Positions 134 to 63,051 of a stretch of DNA of 64,000 nt are shown here, piece after piece (position 1 is the stretch's first letter; each line of letters begins with the position of its first letter). The stretch comes from Escherichia phage VEc20. Below the pieces are notes generated by a model that did no database searches, was not told the origin of the DNA, and saw only the letters and a list, made by a program, of their open reading frames with translations. The stretch lies in sequence record MN022785.1, one strand, 5' to 3'. The position numbers and the translations under genes were made by a program.

Positions 134-1417
134 ATGGCTAAAATCAACGAACTTCTGCGCGAATCAACCACAACGAATAGCAACTCAATCGGTCGCCCAA
201 ATCTCGTTGCTTTGACTCGCGCTACCACTAAATTAATATATTCTGACATTGTAGCAACGCAAAGAACTAATCAACCTGTTGCTGCTTTTTATGGTATCAA
301 ATACCTTAACCCAGACAATGAATTTACATTTAAAACTGGTGCTACTTACGCTGGCGAAGCTGGATATGTAGACCGAGAACAAATCACAGAATTAACAGAA
401 GAGTCTAAATTAACTCTCAATAAAGGCGATTTATTCAAATATAATAATATCGTTTATAAAGTATTAGAAGATACTCCATTTGCTGATATTGAAGAAAGCG
501 ACTTAGAGTTAGCTCTTCAGATTGCAATTGTTCTTTTAAAGGTTCGTCTATTTTCTGACGCAGCGTCAACAAGCAAATTTGAAAGCTCTGATAGTGAAAT
601 TGCGGATGCTAGATTCCAGATTAATAAATGGCAAACCGCAGTTAAATCTCGTAAACTTAAAACTGGCATCACAGTTGAATTAGCGCAAGATTTAGAAGCA
701 AATGGATTCGATGCTCCTAATTTCTTGGAAGATTTGCTTGCAACTGAAATGGCGGATGAAATAAATAAAGATATTTTACAGTCTTTGATTACAGTGTCAA
801 AACGCTATAAAGTTACAGGAATTACTGATAATGGATTCATCGATTTGAGTTATGCATCTGCACCTGAAGCTGGTCGTTCATTATATCGAATGGTATGTGA
901 AATGGTTTCACATATCCAAAAAGAATCAACTTATACAGCAACATTTTGTGTAGCTTCAGCTCGTGCTGCTGCGATTCTTGCTGCATCAGGTTGGTTAAAA
1001 CATAAACCGGAAGATGATAAATATCTTTCACAAAATGCCTACGGGTTCTTAGCTAATGGTTTACCGCTTTATTGCGATACTAACAGCCCATTAGATTATG
1101 TAATCGTTGGTGTAGTAGAAAATATCGGTGAAAAAGAAATTGTTGGTTCAATTTTCTATGCTCCGTATACAGAAGGTCTTGACTTAGATGACCCTGAACA
1201 TGTAGGTGCATTTAAAGTTGTTGTTGATCCAGAAAGCTTACAACCGTCTATCGGTTTATTAGTTAGATATGCTTTATCAGCAAATCCTTATACCGTAGCA
1301 AAAGATGAAAAAGAAGCAAGAATAATTGATGGTGGAGACATGGATAAAATGGCGGGTCGTTCAGATTTGTCTGTTTTATTAGGTGTTAAATTACCAAAAA
1401 TTATTATTGATGAATAA
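134..1417 (+). CDS. 24: head vertex protein gp24
   Basis: 427-aa ORF recognised as T4 gp24; length matches; late promoter upstream; RBS AAAGGAAAG. Confidence 0.9.
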   Translation: MAKINELLRESTTTNSNSIGRPNLVALTRATTKLIYSDIVATQRTNQPVAAFYGIKYLNPDNEFTFKTGATYAGEAGYVDREQITELTEESKLTLNKGDLFKYNNIVYKVLEDTPFADIEESDLELALQIAIVLLKVRLFSDAASTSKFESSDSEIADARFQINKWQTAVKSRKLKTGITVELAQDLEANGFDAPNFLEDLLATEMADEINKDILQSLITVSKRYKVTGITDNGFIDLSYASAPEAGRSLYRMVCEMVSHIQKESTYTATFCVASARAAAILAASGWLKHKPEDDKYLSQNAYGFLANGLPLYCDTNSPLDYVIVGVVENIGEKEIVGSIFYAPYTEGLDLDDPEHVGAFKVVVDPESLQPSIGLLVRYALSANPYTVAKDEKEARIIDGGDMDKMAGRSDLSVLLGVKLPKIIIDE

Positions 1418-2463: not shown

Positions 2464-2742
2464 TCAAAATGTAATTTCTAACCAATCACCATCACGCTGA
2501 TCACTATTGACTTTAAAGCTGAATCCTTCTTTTCTCAGCCAATCACCAATTTCTTCAGTAATCAATTTATCACGAGCAATACAATAATAATTAAAATGTG
2601 TTTTACCTTGTTCAGCTGCTTTATTAGCAAGTTCCGAAAAATCTTTAATAAAACATTCTAGCTTAAACTGTTTACTTTTGAATGCTTTTTCGCGTAATTG
2701 ATTAGCAAAAGATTCATTTTCATAAAGATCATACTGTTCCAT
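2464..2742 (-). CDS. hypothetical protein (24.2-like)
   Basis: 92-aa ORF tightly packed between rnlB and the next ORF. Confidence 0.5.
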   Translation of the reverse strand: MEQYDLYENESFANQLREKAFKSKQFKLECFIKDFSELANKAAEQGKTHFNYYCIARDKLITEEIGDWLRKEGFSFKVNSDQRDGDWLEITF

Positions 2743-2944
2743 TTTTCACCTTTTTATTGATATGTCTTTTTCTATAGACAACTTTTTCTCGAGTTTCAAA
2801 TTTATTCTTAGCAGTCATAGCTCGAGCCCATAATACAGCCACTTCTTTTGCCTGTAAGTTTAATTCACGAGCAATTTCAATGAATGACTTTCCAGACTCA
2901 TGAAGAGTAAACACCACAACCTCAGTTCTCATAATCAATCTCAT
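2729..2944 (-). CDS. hypothetical protein (24.3-like)
   Basis: 71-aa ORF overlapping its neighbour by 14 nt. Confidence 0.5.
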   Translation of the reverse strand: MRLIMRTEVVVFTLHESGKSFIEIARELNLQAKEVAVLWARAMTAKNKFETREKVVYRKRHINKKVKNGTV

Positions 2945-16165: not shown

Positions 16166-16196
16166 TTTGTGTTCCTCATGTTATGTCAGTAAGACT

Positions 16197-16225
16197 ACTA
16201 TAACACAACACGAGGGACTTGTAAA
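16197..16225 (-). promoter_or_regulatory. early promoter (TTTACA-N17-TATAGT)
   Basis: Minus strand GTTTACA-17 bp-TATAGT; part of a 54-bp element (16173-16226) identical to 30449-30502. Confidence 0.55.
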
Positions 16226-16401
16226 CTACATTTTGAACTTTTTAGTACGCGGAATAGGCATGCGTCGATTTTATACTGTTTCATTGTTTGAAGAGCAGTA
16301 TCAAAAACAGCATTAATGACACCAATTGGATTTCCACTCAAGTTTTTAAGCTTAACTAATGATAGTTTCTCATTAACACCTATCATTACGATATGCATCA
16401 T
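16198..16401 (-). CDS. Alt N-terminal paralog fragment (aligns to Alt residues ~65-130)
   Basis: 67-aa ORF MMHIV...TMKQYKIDAC aligning to Alt MMHIVPF...TMRQYKIDAC; ATGA-coupled to the upstream fragment. Confidence 0.5.
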   Translation of the reverse strand: MMHIVMIGVNEKLSLVKLKNLSGNPIGVINAVFDTALQTMKQYKIDACLFRVLKSSKCSLQVPRVVL

Positions 16402-16583
16402 TTTATCGCCTGGTTTAACGTTTTATTTGTATCACCGTCAGAGGTGTATGTACAAAATCTAAATCCAGGAAGTACGCTTTCTTCACCGGCTTGAATAGCA
16501 AAAATTTGAGGTATTTTATGCTTAGGATTTAAGTTAACAACCGGCGCCGAAGCGCCGTCAAATAATTCTGTAATAAGTTCCAT
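16398..16583 (-). CDS. Alt N-terminal paralog fragment (aligns to Alt residues ~2-60)
   Basis: 61-aa ORF MELITELFD...NLNPKHKIPQIF...CTYTSDGDTN aligning to the Alt N-terminus; starts 3 nt after the alt stop. Confidence 0.5.
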   Translation of the reverse strand: MELITELFDGASAPVVNLNPKHKIPQIFAIQAGEESVLPGFRFCTYTSDGDTNKTLNQAIK

Positions 16584-16586
16584 GAT

Positions 16587-21947: not shown

Positions 21948-22140
21948 TGCTTATAATTTCAACATCAGCCCAATGACCATAGCAAGGAAGACGAAATTCA
22001 ACTGGCCAGTTAGGGTCCTTTTCTAATATAATAGACTCAACTCGTGGTTCTTCACGTTCATCAGTATATGGATTTTTATCTGTTACTTTATATGTGACCT
22101 TAATGTACTGAATTCCAAAAATCTTATTAATTATATTCAT
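21934..22140 (-). CDS. hypothetical protein
   Basis: 68-aa ORF in the operon. Confidence 0.45.
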   Translation of the reverse strand: MNIINKIFGIQYIKVTYKVTDKNPYTDEREEPRVESIILEKDPNWPVEFRLPCYGHWADVEIISIENV

Positions 22141-22334
22141 ACTAATTCCTTTAATCCGTAGATAGGAGATAATTCATCACCCATACGAAGGTCTTCATTT
22201 CCATCTACCCAGGAAACAATATAAGCCTCTTTTATTTGAATACCACTCCATTTAAATGGAGGTAGAACCTTAGAAATTAATCCAGGTATACCAACTCCCT
22301 TTAATTCAACAGTTTGACCTAAAAAGAATTTCAT
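22137..22334 (-). CDS. hypothetical protein
   Basis: 65-aa ORF, 4-nt overlap. Confidence 0.45.
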   Translation of the reverse strand: MKFFLGQTVELKGVGIPGLISKVLPPFKWSGIQIKEAYIVSWVDGNEDLRMGDELSPIYGLKELV

Positions 22335-23095: not shown

Positions 23096-23428
23096 TTATT
23101 TTACTACTTTCCAATGCTGCATGTCAAGTTTACCAACTTTTTTCATCTTCTCAATTAAGCGTTCGGCACGTTGGCGAGCTGTAACATAATACCATTCACC
23201 TAATTCATTTTGTTCAATTTTTCCAACGATTACTGTATTCAATTCATAAATCCAACCAGTAAAGAAATTATGAACTTGAATTGTAAAGGTGAAATCTGTT
23301 CCCATACCTTCTGTTGTTTCTACTTCAATAATATCACCTTCAACTGCCATTAAGAACCACATAGTTTCATCATATTTACCATTGAAGCATTTAGTTTTAA
23401 CTGCAGCGTTCAGATTAATCGTTTTCAT
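23096..23428 (-). CDS. hypothetical protein (30.9-like)
   Basis: 110-aa ORF downstream of the early promoter at 23456-23484. Confidence 0.5.
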   Translation of the reverse strand: MKTINLNAAVKTKCFNGKYDETMWFLMAVEGDIIEVETTEGMGTDFTFTIQVHNFFTGWIYELNTVIVGKIEQNELGEWYYVTARQRAERLIEKMKKVGKLDMQHWKVVK

Positions 23429-23455
23429 TTTATTCTCCTTTGTTTGTGTAAGATA

Positions 23456-23484
23456 ATACTATCACAAAGGAACCATACTGTAAA
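23456..23484 (-). promoter_or_regulatory. early promoter (TTTACA-N17-TAGTAT)
   Basis: Minus strand GTTTACA-17 bp-TAGTAT about 28 nt upstream of the 23428 start. Confidence 0.5.
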
Positions 23485-23504
23485 CAACTTTATGCAATCT
23501 TTGG

Positions 23505-23533
23505 AAAATAAAAAAGGACTCCCGAAGGAGTCC
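23505..23533 (-). terminator. intrinsic terminator (UUCG hairpin plus U-run)
   Basis: GGACTCC-CGAA-GGAGTCC; minus-strand RNA hairpin followed by UUUUUUAUUUU. Confidence 0.6.
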
Positions 23534-23538
23534 TCAAC

Positions 23539-23757
23539 TTATGCTTTCTGCTTACCAAAACGAGAAGCATCATCTCGAAGAACCGCACGTGCTCGGCGCA
23601 TGATCTTCTCAACAGTTTGATTGATACGAGAGTTCGACCCACGCTTGTAGCCAGCGCGTTTAGAATCACCAACTTTCTTTTCAACTGCTTTCTTTGCTTT
23701 AGCTTGTTTTGCCATTATAAATTCTCTTTTAAATGAAAATGCAGGACTTATTGGCAT
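23539..23757 (-). CDS. small highly basic protein
   Basis: 72-aa ORF, or 58 aa if it starts at ATG 23715 (MAKQAKAKK...); Lys/Arg-rich; terminator directly downstream. Confidence 0.45.
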   Translation of the reverse strand: MPISPAFSFKREFIMAKQAKAKKAVEKKVGDSKRAGYKRGSNSRINQTVEKIMRRARAVLRDDASRFGKQKA

Positions 23758-24113
23758 TGCCTGCGCAAGCCCTCAAGGGGAACATAGGTTTTTGGATATT
23801 TAACGACCAGGATAACCATAAACCCGTCATCATACCTTATAGCTCTTATCTGTTGCACACCGTTAGCTTAAAGGTTCCGGGTTCGATTTCTCGAGGATAA
23901 GATATATACTGATGGATATATAGGCCTTGAGGCGTACTCCCGATTGGCCATCACCTCGGGGTAGCATGCACTTGCCGCTATAAGAATAACATTCAAGAGG
24001 TACACCGTAAAACTGCCGGGGTCTTAAAACTATAATGATTCGCAAATCATTAATCAGACAGTTCGACGGCTCCTCGATTTTAGCTCACACTAAGGCAGTG
24101 AATCTCCAGTAAA

Positions 24114-24362
24114 TTACTTCAGTGTTACCACAAAGTGACGAACTGCTTTTCGTGCAGCAGAAGCCAAAGGCTTAGCATATTTAAGTTCATCTTTTTCCTG
24201 AAGCTCAGCAGCTAATGCAGTTTGAGCAGGATTCAGATGTTTGAAATAACGCAGGATTTCAAGAGCTTCGGCTTCAACATCAATAGATGCGCCATAGTTT
24301 TCGTGACCATTATTCCATGCGTTTCGTTGCAGTTCAAGAGCGTGTTGTAATTGTTTAATCAT
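24114..24362 (-). CDS. rIII: RIII-like lysis-inhibition accessory protein
   Basis: 82-aa ORF immediately downstream of gene 31; length and position match T4 rIII. Confidence 0.6.
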   Translation of the reverse strand: MIKQLQHALELQRNAWNNGHENYGASIDVEAEALEILRYFKHLNPAQTALAAELQEKDELKYAKPLASAARKAVRHFVVTLK

Positions 24363-24501
24363 TTAAAAATTCTCGTTAGAGATTAAAACTCGGTAGTCAC
24401 GTTCTTCTGAATTTCATCTTCTTTCGACAGATCTCTCAGTTGTAGACTACCACATAGAATTGTTCGGTTAACTTATTATTCCGACACCCAATTCATATTA
24501 T

Positions 24502-24509
24502 TATTTATA
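24502..24509 (-). promoter_or_regulatory. late promoter TATAAATA (minus strand)
   Basis: Plus-strand tatttata right after the gene 31 stop, upstream of rIII. Confidence 0.4.
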
Positions 24510-27485: not shown

Positions 27486-27658
27486 TCAATAACATCCAAA
27501 GCGTTATCAAAAGTTGAACCATCTACTTTGTCTTCTGTTTCATAATCAAGAACATCTAGGCCTACTCTTCCGTCAACAATAGGCCATAAACAAAATAGAT
27601 ATTTCTTTTCTTTTTCAATTTTATCACAAAGACGATAAATCTTTTCTATATTATTCAT
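27458..27658 (-). CDS. hypothetical protein (cd.5-like)
   Basis: 66-aa ORF. Confidence 0.4.
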   Translation of the reverse strand: MNNIEKIYRLCDKIEKEKKYLFCLWPIVDGRVGLDVLDYETEDKVDGSTFDNALDVIDWLEENYVR

Positions 27659-27847
27659 AAGTTTTCCATGGTAAAGGCAGTTTAGTTTTCTTTACTGTTA
27701 GTTCAATATCAGGATTCTTTTCTCTTAATTTAAGGCATTCCTCCCAAGCTCTGATTTCACTAGTGAATACACAAAATTGCCCATTACTAGTACCAACTAA
27801 ACCACTATTTACAATAACAATAGACCAAGTTTCATGATGCCACGCCA

Positions 27848-60047: not shown

Positions 60048-60051
60048 AAAT

Positions 60052-60192
60052 TTACCATACTAGTGAATGTAGTGCCATAATAACATCAGAAATGAAAAGC
60101 ACGACTTGAATTAATCCGAACATTATTCCGTAATATAATGCTATCAATAAAATAGCAAGGGCTAATGAATAGCCCAAGATTTTCTTAATCAT
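60052..60192 (-). CDS. small hydrophobic membrane protein (46 aa)
   Basis: Hand-translated MIKKILGYSLALAILLIALYYGIMFGLIQVVLFISDVIMALHSLVW. Confidence 0.4.
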   Translation of the reverse strand: MIKKILGYSLALAILLIALYYGIMFGLIQVVLFISDVIMALHSLVW

Positions 60193-60343
60193 TAGTAGAT
60201 AACAACACAAATGTTAAATATGCACACATACCCTGAGCTAAAGCTTGCGAAAACACACTGCTGGCATCAATACAGATAGTTAAAACACATGCTACTATCC
60301 AACAAATAAATGAAATAACTCCTAATAATTTTGCGATATTCAT
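60185..60343 (-). CDS. small hydrophobic membrane protein (52 aa)
   Basis: Hand-translated MNIAKLLGVISFICWIVACVLTICIDASSVFSQALAQGMCAYLTFVLLSTND. Confidence 0.4.
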   Translation of the reverse strand: MNIAKLLGVISFICWIVACVLTICIDASSVFSQALAQGMCAYLTFVLLSTND

Positions 60344-60350
60344 ATTTTCC

Positions 60351-60431
60351 TCACTGGCGTCCGAAGACGCCTTTAGTTTTAAGATTATTACGATAGAACT
60401 GCATCACGTGTTCGTTGTGGAAATTACTCAT
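60351..60431 (-). CDS. stp: Stp peptide (26 aa)
   Basis: Hand-translated [26 protein letters not shown], matching T4 Stp as I recall it; TAATG overlap with ndd. Confidence 0.7.
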
Positions 60432-61497: not shown

Positions 61498-61597
61498 AGT
61501 AAGCGTTTAATACATCAATCATTAAAACGATTGGGAATATACTCAAAACTACTAGTATTATAACTACATTCCATATAGCTTTAACAATCTTTTTCAT
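61484..61597 (-). CDS. small membrane protein (37 aa)
   Basis: From ATG 61597 with RBS GGAGG (MKKIVKAIWNVVIILVVLSIFPIVLM...). Confidence 0.4.
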   Translation of the reverse strand: MKKIVKAIWNVVIILVVLSIFPIVLMIDVLNAYFGFM

Positions 61598-61625
61598 TTT
61601 GTGTTCCTCCGTAGTTGATAGGGTA

Positions 61626-61654
61626 ATAGTACCACGGAGGAACAGTCTTGTAAA
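61626..61654 (-). promoter_or_regulatory. early promoter (TTTACA-N17-TACTAT)
   Basis: GATAGGGTAATAGTACCA family member. Confidence 0.5.
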
Positions 61655-61839
61655 CAACTTTTTAAAAATATTCGTAATAAATGTGAATACCAACTACTAC
61701 CGCTGAAACCTGTGCAACCCACCACGCACAAGCAATAAGTACAGAATTCAAAATTTTCATAATAACCTCATTACAAAAGTAAATGTTAAACAAATTAATG
61801 GAATACTAATTAACCAAACAAAACACCACCATAATGAAC

Positions 61840-62741: not shown

Positions 62742-62800
62742 TTAAACTTTCCTTTTATGTCTGAATCACTGGTATTCATATAATAAATCATAATTTCTCT

Positions 62801-62823
62801 TAAAACAAAAGGGCCGAAGCCCT
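62801..62823 (-). terminator. UUCG hairpin with U-run
   Basis: AGGGC-CGAA-GCCCT; minus-strand RNA hairpin followed by UUUUGUUUU; the same hairpin recurs at 63038. Confidence 0.45.
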
Positions 62824-62827
62824 TATT

Positions 62828-63022
62828 TTATTTGAATTGTGCAATTCTTTTCTCTAGACATTCAGCATAAGATTTCATTGAGATAAACTGCGAAAGTAAC
62901 AGTTCTTGCTCAACTGCATTAACTGTTAGAAACTTTGCGCTTTCTAAAAATTTGCTCAGTGCATTAATTTTGAGCATTAATTGATCGTATTCTTCTTTTA
63001 CTCGTGCTTGATAACCTAACAT
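62828..63022 (-). CDS. hypothetical protein
   Basis: 64-aa ORF flanked by two copies of the AAGGGCCGAAGCCCTTA hairpin. Confidence 0.45.
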   Translation of the reverse strand: MLGYQARVKEEYDQLMLKINALSKFLESAKFLTVNAVEQELLLSQFISMKSYAECLEKRIAQFK

Positions 63023-63037
63023 AATTTTCCTCAGTTA

Positions 63038-63051
63038 AGGGCCGAAGCCCT
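63038..63051. other. intergenic UUCG hairpin
   Basis: AGGGC-CGAA-GCCCT directly after the rIIB stop. Confidence 0.4.

What the first reader, a model, noticed from the sequence alone, without database searches (positions are those of the whole stretch)
23758..24113. ORF-free 356-bp gap in an otherwise gap-free early gene array
Between the small basic ORF (23539-23757) and rIII there is no convincing ORF on either strand; only a 60-aa frame with no RBS. The segment holds several short palindromes and a GGTTCGATT motif. Neighbouring early genes overlap or sit 1-60 bp apart, so this gap stands out and could hold a small RNA, a regulatory region or a decayed gene.
Basis: seen in the sequence. Interest (0 to 1): 0.4.

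Follow-up and report, generated by a model that had tools for sequence, protein, structure and literature searches.

The report
Undescribed structured RNA in T4-like phages
The "empty" gap between the phage genes rIII and 30.9 encodes a roughly 150-base RNA with an elaborate, evolutionarily protected fold; about 400 T4-like phage genomes carry it but T4 itself does not, I found no match in the Rfam catalogue or the literature I could search, and its function is unknown.

Summary
The gap is real, and larger than reported. The true non-coding stretch is 23716-24113 (398 bp), because the conserved start of gene 30.9 is the ATG at 23715.

It is not a decayed gene or a tRNA relic. Its centre (23832-23992, minus strand) is a conserved structured RNA:
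- Seven helices form a perfect four-way junction plus a three-way junction.
- A 6-bp loop-loop "kissing" helix joins two hairpin loops.
- In 35 sequences, 99.2% of pair cells are canonical and 27 of 49 pairs show compensatory double changes. Slid controls give 25-40%.
- There are 64 G·U cells and no A·C cells, which places the RNA on the gene strand.

The 135-nt core is 80-96% identical across at least 11 genera. The flanking rIII and gene 31 are 60-75% identical.

The RNA always lies between rIII and 30.9, in one copy. About 40% of related genomes have it. T4 lacks exactly this segment.

No Rfam family, tRNA, conserved ORF or bacterial homologue matches it, and I found no description in the literature.

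Function is unknown. My best inference is an autonomous, dispensable RNA module that binds a conserved partner, rather than a switch for its neighbouring genes.

The parts
23832..23992 (-). Whole structured RNA domain as matched by the covariance model (161 nt including short flanks). T4 lacks 23834-23986.
   Evidence: Model R1 scores 186 bits, E=2e-42, with a single hit in the 64-kb window. Window-versus-T4 alignment.
23977..23984 (-). P1 5' strand (CUUAUAGC). It pairs with 23836-23843 (GCUAUAAG). This is the closing stem: 5 bp in the consensus, 8 bp in the window.
   Evidence: Four of the five consensus pairs covary. Coordinates.
23836..23843 (-). P1 3' strand
23974..23976 (-). P2 5' strand (GGC), pairing with 23923-23925 (GCC)
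23966..23973 (-). J2/3, AAGUGCAU. Nearly invariant unpaired strand of the P2/P3 internal loop.
   Evidence: Column conservation
23932..23965 (-). P3, a long bulged hairpin: 5' strand 23954-23965, loop L3 23948-23953 (UGAUGG), 3' strand 23932-23947. One GenBank record mis-annotates it as a terminator.
   Evidence: Eight of 12 pairs have compensatory changes. The stem is kept in EcS1 and fHe-Yen9-01 although the sequence is unrelated. Annotation.
23948..23953 (-). L3, one strand of the kissing helix (5'-YGAUGG-3')
   Evidence: Pairs with L4. Pair types 40-101 CG24/UA9, 42-100 GC30/AU2/UA2, 63-96 GC32/AU1.
23926..23931 (-). J3/2, CUCAAG. Conserved unpaired strand opposite J2/3.
23903..23922 (-). 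P4 hairpin. Stems at 23916-23922 and 23903-23909; loop L4 at 23910-23915 (CCAUCA) is the other kissing strand.
   Evidence: Three of seven stem pairs covary, plus the kissing-helix covariation
23896..23902 (-). P5 5' strand (UCUUAUC), pairing with 23844-23850 (GAUAAGA). It closes the three-way sub-domain.
   Evidence: Three of seven pairs covary; 100% of cells paired
23883..23894 (-). P6 hairpin UCGA-GAAA-UCGA. The tetraloop is GAAA or GUAA in most sequences, UAAA or UAAU in a few. The plus-strand GGTTCGATT (23880-23888) is its antisense.
   Evidence: Three of four pairs covary, 9 U·G cells. Sequences.
23857..23882 (-). P7 (ACCCG / CGG-U-GU with a bulged U) and its 15-nt loop L7 (23863-23877). 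The 3' half of the loop, GCUAA, is invariant.
   Evidence: Two of five pairs covary, for example A-U to U-A in Cronus
23844..23856 (-). J7/5 (GCAACA, invariant, 23851-23856) and the P5 3' strand (23844-23850)
23787..23834 (-). 'Block X', a second conserved module also kept in T4. It has a short covarying stem and a conserved tail CGUUAAAUA. It lies downstream of the RNA here but upstream of it in other genera.
23716..23786 (-). 5' leader of 30.9: hairpin CCCCUUGAGGG, hairpin GCAGG...CCUGC, then the ribosome-binding region of 30.9
   Evidence: Sequence; alignments
23993..24113 (-). Spacer between the rIII stop codon and the RNA. It is shared with T4 and JS98-type phages. In Moon, Merlin, Cronus and COW86c it is absent and the RNA starts a few bases after the rIII stop.
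24114..24362 (-). rIII (lysis-inhibition accessory protein), the upstream neighbour
   Evidence: 100% identical to T4 RIII; phrog_1457
23539..23715 (-). Gene 30.9 (58-aa basic protein, function unknown), the downstream neighbour
   Evidence: 100% identical to T4 gp30.9; phrog_1427
24500..24507 (-). T4-type late promoter motif TATAAATA upstream of rIII
   Evidence: Sequence. The same site is annotated in phage SA21RB.
23514..23535 (-). Intrinsic terminator after 30.9, the likely 3' end of the rIII-RNA-30.9 transcription unit
   Evidence: annotated in relatives

Best explanation
SHOWN. The middle of the gap (23832-23992, minus strand) encodes a roughly 150-nt RNA domain that folds on its own.
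- P1 closes a perfect four-way junction: the P2-P3 arm, P4 and the P5 arm, with no unpaired nucleotides at the junction.
- P5 carries a three-way junction with P6 and P7.
- The loops of P3 and P4 form a 6-bp kissing helix.
- The RNA lies inside the rIII-30.9 transcription unit, between a late promoter upstream of rIII and a terminator after 30.9.
- It is single-copy and specific to T4-like phages of Enterobacterales.
- It is more conserved than the neighbouring genes.
- It is dispensable: T4 and many close relatives lack it.

INFERRED. It works as an autonomous RNA device. Its compact tertiary fold presents near-invariant unpaired nucleotides (AAGNGCAU, CUCAWG, GCUAAYGG, GCAACA) to a conserved partner, most likely a host or phage protein and less likely a small ligand. 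It acts either after being cut out of the mRNA as a stable non-coding RNA or while still embedded in it. It does not act by masking its neighbours' ribosome-binding sites.

Because it behaves like an accessory cassette, a host-takeover or counter-defence role, as a decoy or sponge, is the most likely purpose.
For: Structure
- RNAalifold on an unbiased MAFFT alignment of 10 genera gives 45 pairs, 15 of them with compensatory changes.
- On 35 sequences, 99.2% of cells are paired, 27 of 49 pairs have double changes, 0 of 500 shuffles reach this, and slid controls give 25-40%.
- The kissing helix covaries at three positions. It is re-created as CAAUGA/UCAUUG in EcS1 and fHe-Yen9-01, whose P3 sequence is otherwise unrelated.

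Strand
- 64 G·U cells against 0 A·C cells.

Constraint
- The core is 80-96% identical at the nucleotide level. rIII is 67-75%, gene 31 is 60-73% and 30.9 is 58-87%.

Autonomy
- The distance to the rIII stop codon ranges from a few nucleotides to 137 nt.
- Block X lies between the RNA and 30.9 in some genera and upstream of the RNA in others.

Accessory status
- Model scores are 104 bits or more, or 11 bits or less, with nothing in between.
- Carriers and non-carriers can have identical RIII and gp30.9.
- Losses or replacements occur in three lineages.

Phage-specific
- 0 hits in 185,579 bacterial species genomes, and no similarity in E. coli genomes or plasmids.

Not a known family
-.
Against: - I have no expression, end-mapping or binding data. 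All published T4 transcriptomics is blind to this element because T4 lacks it.
- The single-sequence folding energy is unremarkable (z = -1.3).
- Most of the roughly 400 copies are very similar, so the number of independent compensatory events is modest. The model-fitted alignments lean towards the structure.
- The high cross-genus identity could partly reflect recent recombinational spread of a cassette rather than constraint alone.
- Nothing identifies the partner. The decoy or counter-defence purpose is an argument from the accessory distribution, not a result.
Confidence: 0.5

Rival explanations
1. Cis-acting mRNA element. The folded domain acts only on its own transcript, for example as a barrier to RNase E scanning or to 3' exonucleases. 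That would stabilise the rIII or 30.9 segments, or define a processing site that uncouples them.
For: It lies between two co-transcribed genes, inside one transcription unit. The whole intergenic region is built from conserved hairpin modules. No independent promoter or terminator was found for it.
Against: Seven helices, a covarying kissing helix and about 35 near-invariant unpaired nucleotides are far more than a nuclease barrier needs. T4 and others express identical rIII and 30.9 genes without it. Its position relative to both genes is not conserved.
Confidence: 0.22
2. Riboswitch-like sensor. The domain is an aptamer for a metabolite or signalling nucleotide and controls read-through or translation of 30.9 or downstream genes.
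For: The architecture is aptamer-like: a closing P1, multi-helix junctions, conserved junction nucleotides and kissing loops, as in purine and lysine aptamers. It lies upstream of 30.9.
Against: No conserved expression platform overlaps the P1 3' strand. The sequence after P1 differs between genera, and a 45-nt module may or may not intervene. No terminator-like hairpin follows it. It matches no Rfam riboswitch even at E<=10. The downstream gene gives no clue to a ligand.
Confidence: 0.12
3. Self-cleaving or otherwise catalytic RNA that processes the rIII-30.9 transcript.
For: Its size and complexity (junctions plus a kissing loop) recall large ribozymes such as VS or glmS. It lies between two cistrons.
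Against: There is no similarity to any ribozyme family in Rfam. No candidate cleavage site can be named. This cannot be tested computationally.
Confidence: 0.05
4. DNA-level element (recombination hotspot, replication or packaging signal), or a selfish mobile cassette without an RNA function.
For: Presence/absence polymorphism, and module order permuted relative to block X.
Against: The strand-asymmetric pairing (64 G·U, 0 A·C) and the covarying long-range and loop-loop pairs point to selection on a single-stranded minus-strand transcript. There is one copy per genome, always at the same locus, with no target-site duplication.
Confidence: 0.04
5. Decayed or very small protein-coding gene, or a tRNA relic.
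For: A 60-aa TTG frame and a 45-aa GTG frame overlap it. Some GenBank records-44-aa CDSs here. The GGTTCGATT motif is present.
Against: Every frame on both strands has at least one stop codon in all 31 unique homologues. Indels of 1-2 nt occur. There are no Pfam or PHROG hits. ARAGORN finds no tRNA. The motif is antisense to the structured strand.
Confidence: 0.02

Closest known systems
Orphan structured non-coding RNA motifs found by comparative genomics (Weinberg/Breaker-type motifs; the catalogue of candidate structured RNAs in viruses and phages, PMC10690425)
   Same: A conserved intergenic element defined by covariation, with function not evident from its neighbours.
   Different: It matches none of the 4,227 Rfam 15 families. 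Neither the text of that catalogue paper nor the other papers I searched mention this locus. I could not inspect the catalogue's sequence files, so an unnamed entry there cannot be excluded.
Junction-plus-kissing-loop riboswitch aptamers (purine and lysine riboswitches); comparison from my own knowledge of those structures
   Same: A closing P1, a multi-helix junction, near-invariant junction nucleotides, and two hairpin loops joined by Watson-Crick kissing pairs.
   Different: No sequence or model similarity. No conserved expression platform and a variable distance to the downstream gene. Different topology: a four-way plus a three-way junction.
T4 stable RNAs C and D (species 1 and 2 RNAs, rnaC/rnaD)
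   Same: T-even phage-encoded non-coding RNAs of about 120-140 nt with unknown function (PMC3014915).
   Different: They lie at a different locus, the tRNA cluster, and are unrelated. Model R1 with filters off gives no hit on them. rnaC ends in a tRNA-like arm, which this RNA does not have.
Cis-acting RNAs that act from within a transcript, such as HK022 put RNA (my own knowledge, not tested)
   Same: A folded RNA module embedded in a phage transcript, upstream of a terminator.
   Different: put is two simple stem-loops of about 70 nt. There is no similarity, and an action on RNA polymerase is pure speculation here.
Mobile regulatory cassettes of T4-type phages (promoter-plus-stem-loop 'PeSL' modules; my own recollection of Arbiol et al. 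2010, not checked here)
   Same: Modular non-coding units in variable regions of T4-type genomes, with presence/absence and reshuffling by recombination.
   Different: PeSLs are multi-copy promoter-plus-hairpin units. This RNA is single-copy, has no recognisable promoter, and has a complex tertiary fold.

Membership tests
tRNA / tRNA-like element (suggested by GGTTCGATT) | Cloverleaf detectable by a tRNA finder | tested here: not met
   ARAGORN finds 0 genes in the whole window.
tRNA / tRNA-like element (suggested by GGTTCGATT) | T-arm motif on the strand that is under structural selection | tested here: not met
   The motif is on the plus strand. Pairing statistics put the RNA on the minus strand (64 G·U against 0 A·C). 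The motif is the antisense of the P6 3' half, the last loop bases and the first bases of P7.
Any described RNA family (Rfam 15) | Covariance-model score at or above the gathering threshold | tested here: not met
   0 matches in the window. No match at E<=10 over 23825-24000 or inside the gap. The divergent homologue gives only a chance-level hit.
Protein-coding gene, intact or decayed | A reading frame conserved among homologues | tested here: not met
   All six frames carry at least one stop in each of 31 unique homologues. Indels are not multiples of three.
Protein-coding gene, intact or decayed | Similarity of the translated frames to a protein family | tested here: not met
   No Pfam hit at E<=1 and no PHROG hit at E<=0.1 for the 60-, 45- and 55-aa frames.
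Intrinsic terminator (as annotated on this element in OL960580) | G+C-rich hairpin directly followed by a U tract | tested here: not met
   The scan finds terminators only after 30.9. The annotated hairpin is P3 and is followed by CCUCAAGG.
Riboswitch | Conserved aptamer-like domain closed by P1 with conserved junction nucleotides | tested here: met
Riboswitch | Expression platform overlapping the aptamer, at a fixed position before the regulated gene | tested here: not met
   The sequence after P1 is not conserved between genera. Block X lies between the RNA and 30.9 only in some genera, and the distance to 30.9 varies. No terminator hairpin follows.
Riboswitch | Specific ligand binding | not testable with these tools
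   Needs in-line probing, SHAPE or ITC.
Self-cleaving ribozyme classes | Match to a known class, or demonstrated cleavage | tested here: inconclusive
   No Rfam ribozyme match. Catalysis cannot be tested in silico.
T4 stable RNAs C/D | Sequence or structure similarity to rnaC/rnaD | tested here: not met
   Model R1 with filters off on the T4 tRNA/rnaC/rnaD region gives a best score of 5.9 bits, elsewhere in the locus.
Mobile element (MITE/IS-like) | Several copies at different loci, with terminal repeats and a target-site duplication | tested here: not met
   There is one place per record and one hit in the window. It always lies between rIII and 30.9. There is no duplication at the T4 junction. 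The inverted repeat is the covarying P1 stem.

The most novel reading that the evidence does not exclude
This is a previously unrecognised class of phage non-coding RNA with riboswitch- or ribozyme-grade tertiary architecture. It would act in trans on a conserved host or defence component, for example as an RNA decoy or sponge that counters an anti-phage system or captures a host RNA-binding or ribonuclease factor. It would have gone unnoticed because the model phage T4 has deleted it.
Probability: 0.3. Interest if true: 0.85.

Novelty: new variant of a known kind. Interest (0 to 1): 0.7.

Why it matters
T4-type phages are the most intensively studied viruses of bacteria. A 2010 review states that no riboswitch or trans-acting regulatory RNA had been functionally characterised from T4, and it suggested that relatives might hold candidates (PMC3014915).

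Here is such a candidate. It has a complex fold with strong evolutionary support, and it is more conserved than the essential co-chaperonin gene next to it. It is carried by hundreds of therapeutic and environmental Escherichia, Klebsiella, Enterobacter, Yersinia, Serratia, Citrobacter, Edwardsiella and Erwinia phages. T4 itself does not have it.

Its accessory distribution provides natural plus/minus pairs with identical neighbouring genes, so a function is directly testable. It should also stop genome annotators from calling spurious small ORFs and a terminator at this site.

Tried and rejected
- tRNA or tmRNA: ARAGORN finds none.
- Rfam at gathering threshold and at E<=10 on the window and on a divergent homologue: nothing in the element. 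The weak Atu_C8 and Phe_leader hits are the terminator hairpin after 30.9.
- Promoter/terminator scan: nothing inside the gap.
- Coding potential: rejected.
- Bacterial, E. coli and plasmid homologues: none.
- Wider search for divergent members:
  - The exact 20-mer pattern found only T4-like phages, plus three chance hits in unrelated coding sequence (L066, L089, L090).
  - A looser gapped pattern gave about 60 new loci, none confirmed by the model.
  - The model with filters off found nothing in 18 rIII loci that lack the element.
- Relationship to T4 rnaC/rnaD: none.
- gp30.9 as a recognisable RNA-binding protein: no Pfam, NCBIfam or PDB similarity. Its sequence is identical in carriers and non-carriers, so there is no evidence that it is a dedicated partner.
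- A brute-force screen for further tertiary pairs was mostly noise from phylogenetic linkage. Only the L3-L4 kissing helix held up.
- A GNRA tetraloop-receptor idea for P6 was dropped because the loop is UAAA or UAAU in some members.
- An anticodon-loop mimic idea for L7 was dropped because that part of the loop varies.
- Literature searches found no description of the element.

Full report
**Context.** The window is a T4-type (Tequatrovirus) genome segment. The stretch 23400-24500 is 100% identical to Escherichia phages slur03, slur08 and slur14. The genes here are on the minus strand, in the T4 order cd, 31.2, 31.1, 31, rIII, 30.9, 30.8. RIII and gp30.9 are 100% identical to those of T4.

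**Observation.** The ORF-free stretch is real.
- The 72-aa ORF that bounds it (23539-23757) is over-extended. T4 annotates 30.9 as 58 aa, and conservation across genera starts at the internal ATG at 23715. The non-coding stretch is therefore 23716-24113, or 398 bp.
- The frames inside it (60, 45 and 55 aa) match no Pfam or PHROG family.
- T4 has a gap at the same place, but it is only 244 bp.
- Aligned to T4, the window is nearly identical on both sides and carries 153 extra bases, 23834-23986.

**The extra segment is a conserved element.**
- By blastn it is present in 407 of 50,697 phage records, 397 of them with at least 80% coverage. By comparison, 993 records match some part of the gap.
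- Each record has a single copy. In every record inspected the element lies between the rIII and 30.9 homologues, on the gene strand.
- The inspected records cover 11 genera: Tequatrovirus, Dhakavirus, Moonvirus, Karamvirus, Kanagawavirus, Roskildevirus, Jiaodavirus, Marfavirus, Muldoonvirus, Tegunavirus and Kagamiyamavirus. Unclassified Erwinia and Klebsiella phages carry it too.
- The 135-nt core is 80-96% identical to the window's copy. In the same phages rIII is 67-75% identical, gene 31 is 60-73% and 30.9 is 58-87%.

**It is a structured RNA.**
- A MAFFT alignment of ten genera, made without any structural guidance, shows many compensatory changes. RNAalifold predicts 45 pairs from it, 15 with double changes.
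- A covariance model built from this alignment finds the element at 104-196 bits in 21 of 48 rIII loci taken from IMG/VR, and in 14 metagenome contigs. With filters off it gives nothing above 11 bits in loci that lack the element.
- On 35 sequences, helices P1-P7 are 98-99% paired, against 25-40% when one partner is slid by 1-3 columns. No shuffle out of 500 reaches the observed values.
- While screening unpaired columns I found that the P3 loop (5'-YGAUGG) and the P4 loop (5'-CCAUCR) covary as a 6-bp kissing helix. The pair types are CG 24 / UA 9, GC 30 / AU 2 / UA 2, and GC 32 / AU 1.
- In EcS1 and fHe-Yen9-01 the P3 sequence is otherwise unrelated, yet the two loops read CAAUGA and UCAUUG.
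- With this helix included, 99.2% of 1,703 cells are canonical pairs and 27 of 49 pairs show double changes.
- There are 64 G·U cells and no A·C cells, so the selected strand is the minus strand, the strand of the genes.

**Topology**:
- P1 closes a four-way junction with no unpaired nucleotides.
- One arm is P2-P3, interrupted by a conserved internal loop (AAGUGCAU opposite CUCAAG).
- The next arm is P4, which kisses P3.
- The third arm is P5, which opens into a three-way junction with P6 (a tetraloop hairpin) and P7 (a 15-nt loop ending in the invariant GCUAA), followed by the invariant GCAACA.

**What it is not.**
- It is not a tRNA. GGTTCGATT lies on the antisense strand and is the complement of part of P6 and the start of P7.
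- It matches no Rfam 15 family.
- It is not a gene. Every frame has stop codons in every homologue, and there are 1-2-nt indels.
- It is not a terminator. The hairpin annotated as one in OL960580 is P3, and it lacks a U tract.
- It is not related to T4 rnaC or rnaD.
- It is not of bacterial origin. There are no matches in 185,579 species genomes, in E. coli genomes or in plasmids.
- It is not a multi-copy mobile element.

**Genomic behaviour.**
- The element is dispensable. T4 lacks exactly the P1-enclosed domain, with no target-site duplication.
- JS98-type phages split into carriers and relatives in which an unrelated filler of about 50 nt replaces it.
- PG7- and COW86c-type phages split in the same way.
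- The distance from the rIII stop codon ranges from a few nucleotides (Moon, Merlin, Cronus, COW86c) to 137 nt in the window.
- A second conserved module, block X (window 23787-23834, retained in T4), lies downstream of the RNA in some genera and upstream of it in others.
- A TATAAATA late-promoter motif lies upstream of rIII, and an intrinsic terminator follows 30.9. No promoter- or terminator-like site lies inside the gap. The RNA is therefore most simply read as part of the rIII-30.9 transcript.

**Mechanism.**
- Shown: this is a compact, autonomously folding, strongly constrained accessory RNA domain on the mRNA strand.
- Inferred: because its position relative to both neighbours is free, and because the neighbours are identical in carriers and non-carriers, it probably does not switch their expression. 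The near-invariant unpaired nucleotides, held in place by a junction-plus-kissing-loop scaffold, look like a binding surface for a conserved protein or ligand.
- I therefore favour an autonomous RNA device, either a stable processed RNA or a UTR-embedded domain, that binds a conserved partner. Given the accessory distribution, a host-takeover or counter-defence purpose is the most likely one. My confidence is about 0.5 for the device reading and much lower for the purpose.
- Rivals, in order: a cis-acting stability or processing element (0.22), a riboswitch (0.12), a ribozyme (0.05), a DNA-level or selfish cassette (0.04), and a decayed gene or tRNA relic (0.02).

**Caveats.**
- There are no expression data, and T4-based datasets cannot contain this element.
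- The single-sequence folding z-score is only -1.3.
- Many copies are near-identical, so independent events are fewer than cell counts suggest.
- The high cross-genus identity may partly reflect cassette exchange. However, the ranking of core identity roughly follows that of rIII identity.

**Novelty.**
- I found no description in the searchable literature.
- A 2010 review notes that no riboswitch or trans-acting RNA had been characterised from T4, and it pointed to relatives as the place to look.

Noticed in passing
window 23787-23834 (- strand): 'Block X' (UAUGAUGACGGGUUUAUGGUUAUCCUGGUCGUUAAAUAUCCAAAAACC) is a second module conserved in all ten genera and in T4. It has a 3-bp stem in which two pairs covary. 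It lies downstream of the RNA here and in Moon, Merlin, PG7, COW86c and Cronus, but upstream of it in Klebsiella phages, PEi20 and Muldoon. Its function is unknown, and by eye it does not fit sigma-70, T4 early or T4 late promoter consensus.
   Followed up: partly
window 23539-23757: The 'small basic ORF' is gene 30.9, and the ORF call over-extends it. The conserved start is the ATG at 23715 (58 aa, identical to T4 gp30.9). The extra 14 codons overlap a leader hairpin.
   Followed up: yes
window 24500-24507 (- strand): A T4 late-promoter motif TATAAATA lies immediately after the gene 31 stop codon, so rIII and the RNA can be transcribed late as well as by read-through. This locus is not purely an 'early gene array'.
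   Followed up: partly
window 23456-23535 (- strand): A strong intrinsic terminator (23514-23535) after 30.9 is followed by an early-promoter-like site (23456-23484). The weak Rfam hits to Atu_C8 and Phe_leader are just this terminator hairpin.
   Followed up: yes
L003 2521-2625; L007 1204-1338; L096 733-771: Public records annotate spurious small hypothetical CDSs (PP889492 CDS0050, COW86c_228) or a 'rho-independent terminator' (OL960580) on top of the RNA.
   Followed up: yes
L018 and L023, about 2870-2930: JS98-type phages without the RNA carry an unrelated filler of about 50 nt (GTACTATCACGTGTCAGAAAAAGGTTATCTGTCTAAGCCGTGGTTGG) at exactly the same site. This suggests allelic cassettes rather than a simple deletion. 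I did not check the filler for structure.
   Followed up: no
L003 about 2690-2754 (- strand); L008 about 1120-1190 (- strand): A hairpin GCGUACAC...GUGUACGC followed by GGGUAACG travels together with block X, both upstream of the RNA (Klebsiella phages) and downstream of it (Cronus).
   Followed up: no
window 16166-16586, 21948-22333, 27486-27847, 60048-60430, 61498-61839, 62742-63050: These are the other stretches not covered by any ORF of 70 aa or more. They probably hold short genes, but I did not examine them. Rfam at gathering threshold finds nothing anywhere in the window.
   Followed up: no
window 24063-24111 (- strand): Two GGAG motifs lie between the rIII stop codon and the RNA: CUGGAGAUU just after the stop, and CGAGGAGCC about 40 nt further on. 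GGAG is the consensus target of the T4 RegB endoribonuclease. Other genera lack them in the equivalent spacer, so no conserved role can be inferred.
   Followed up: no
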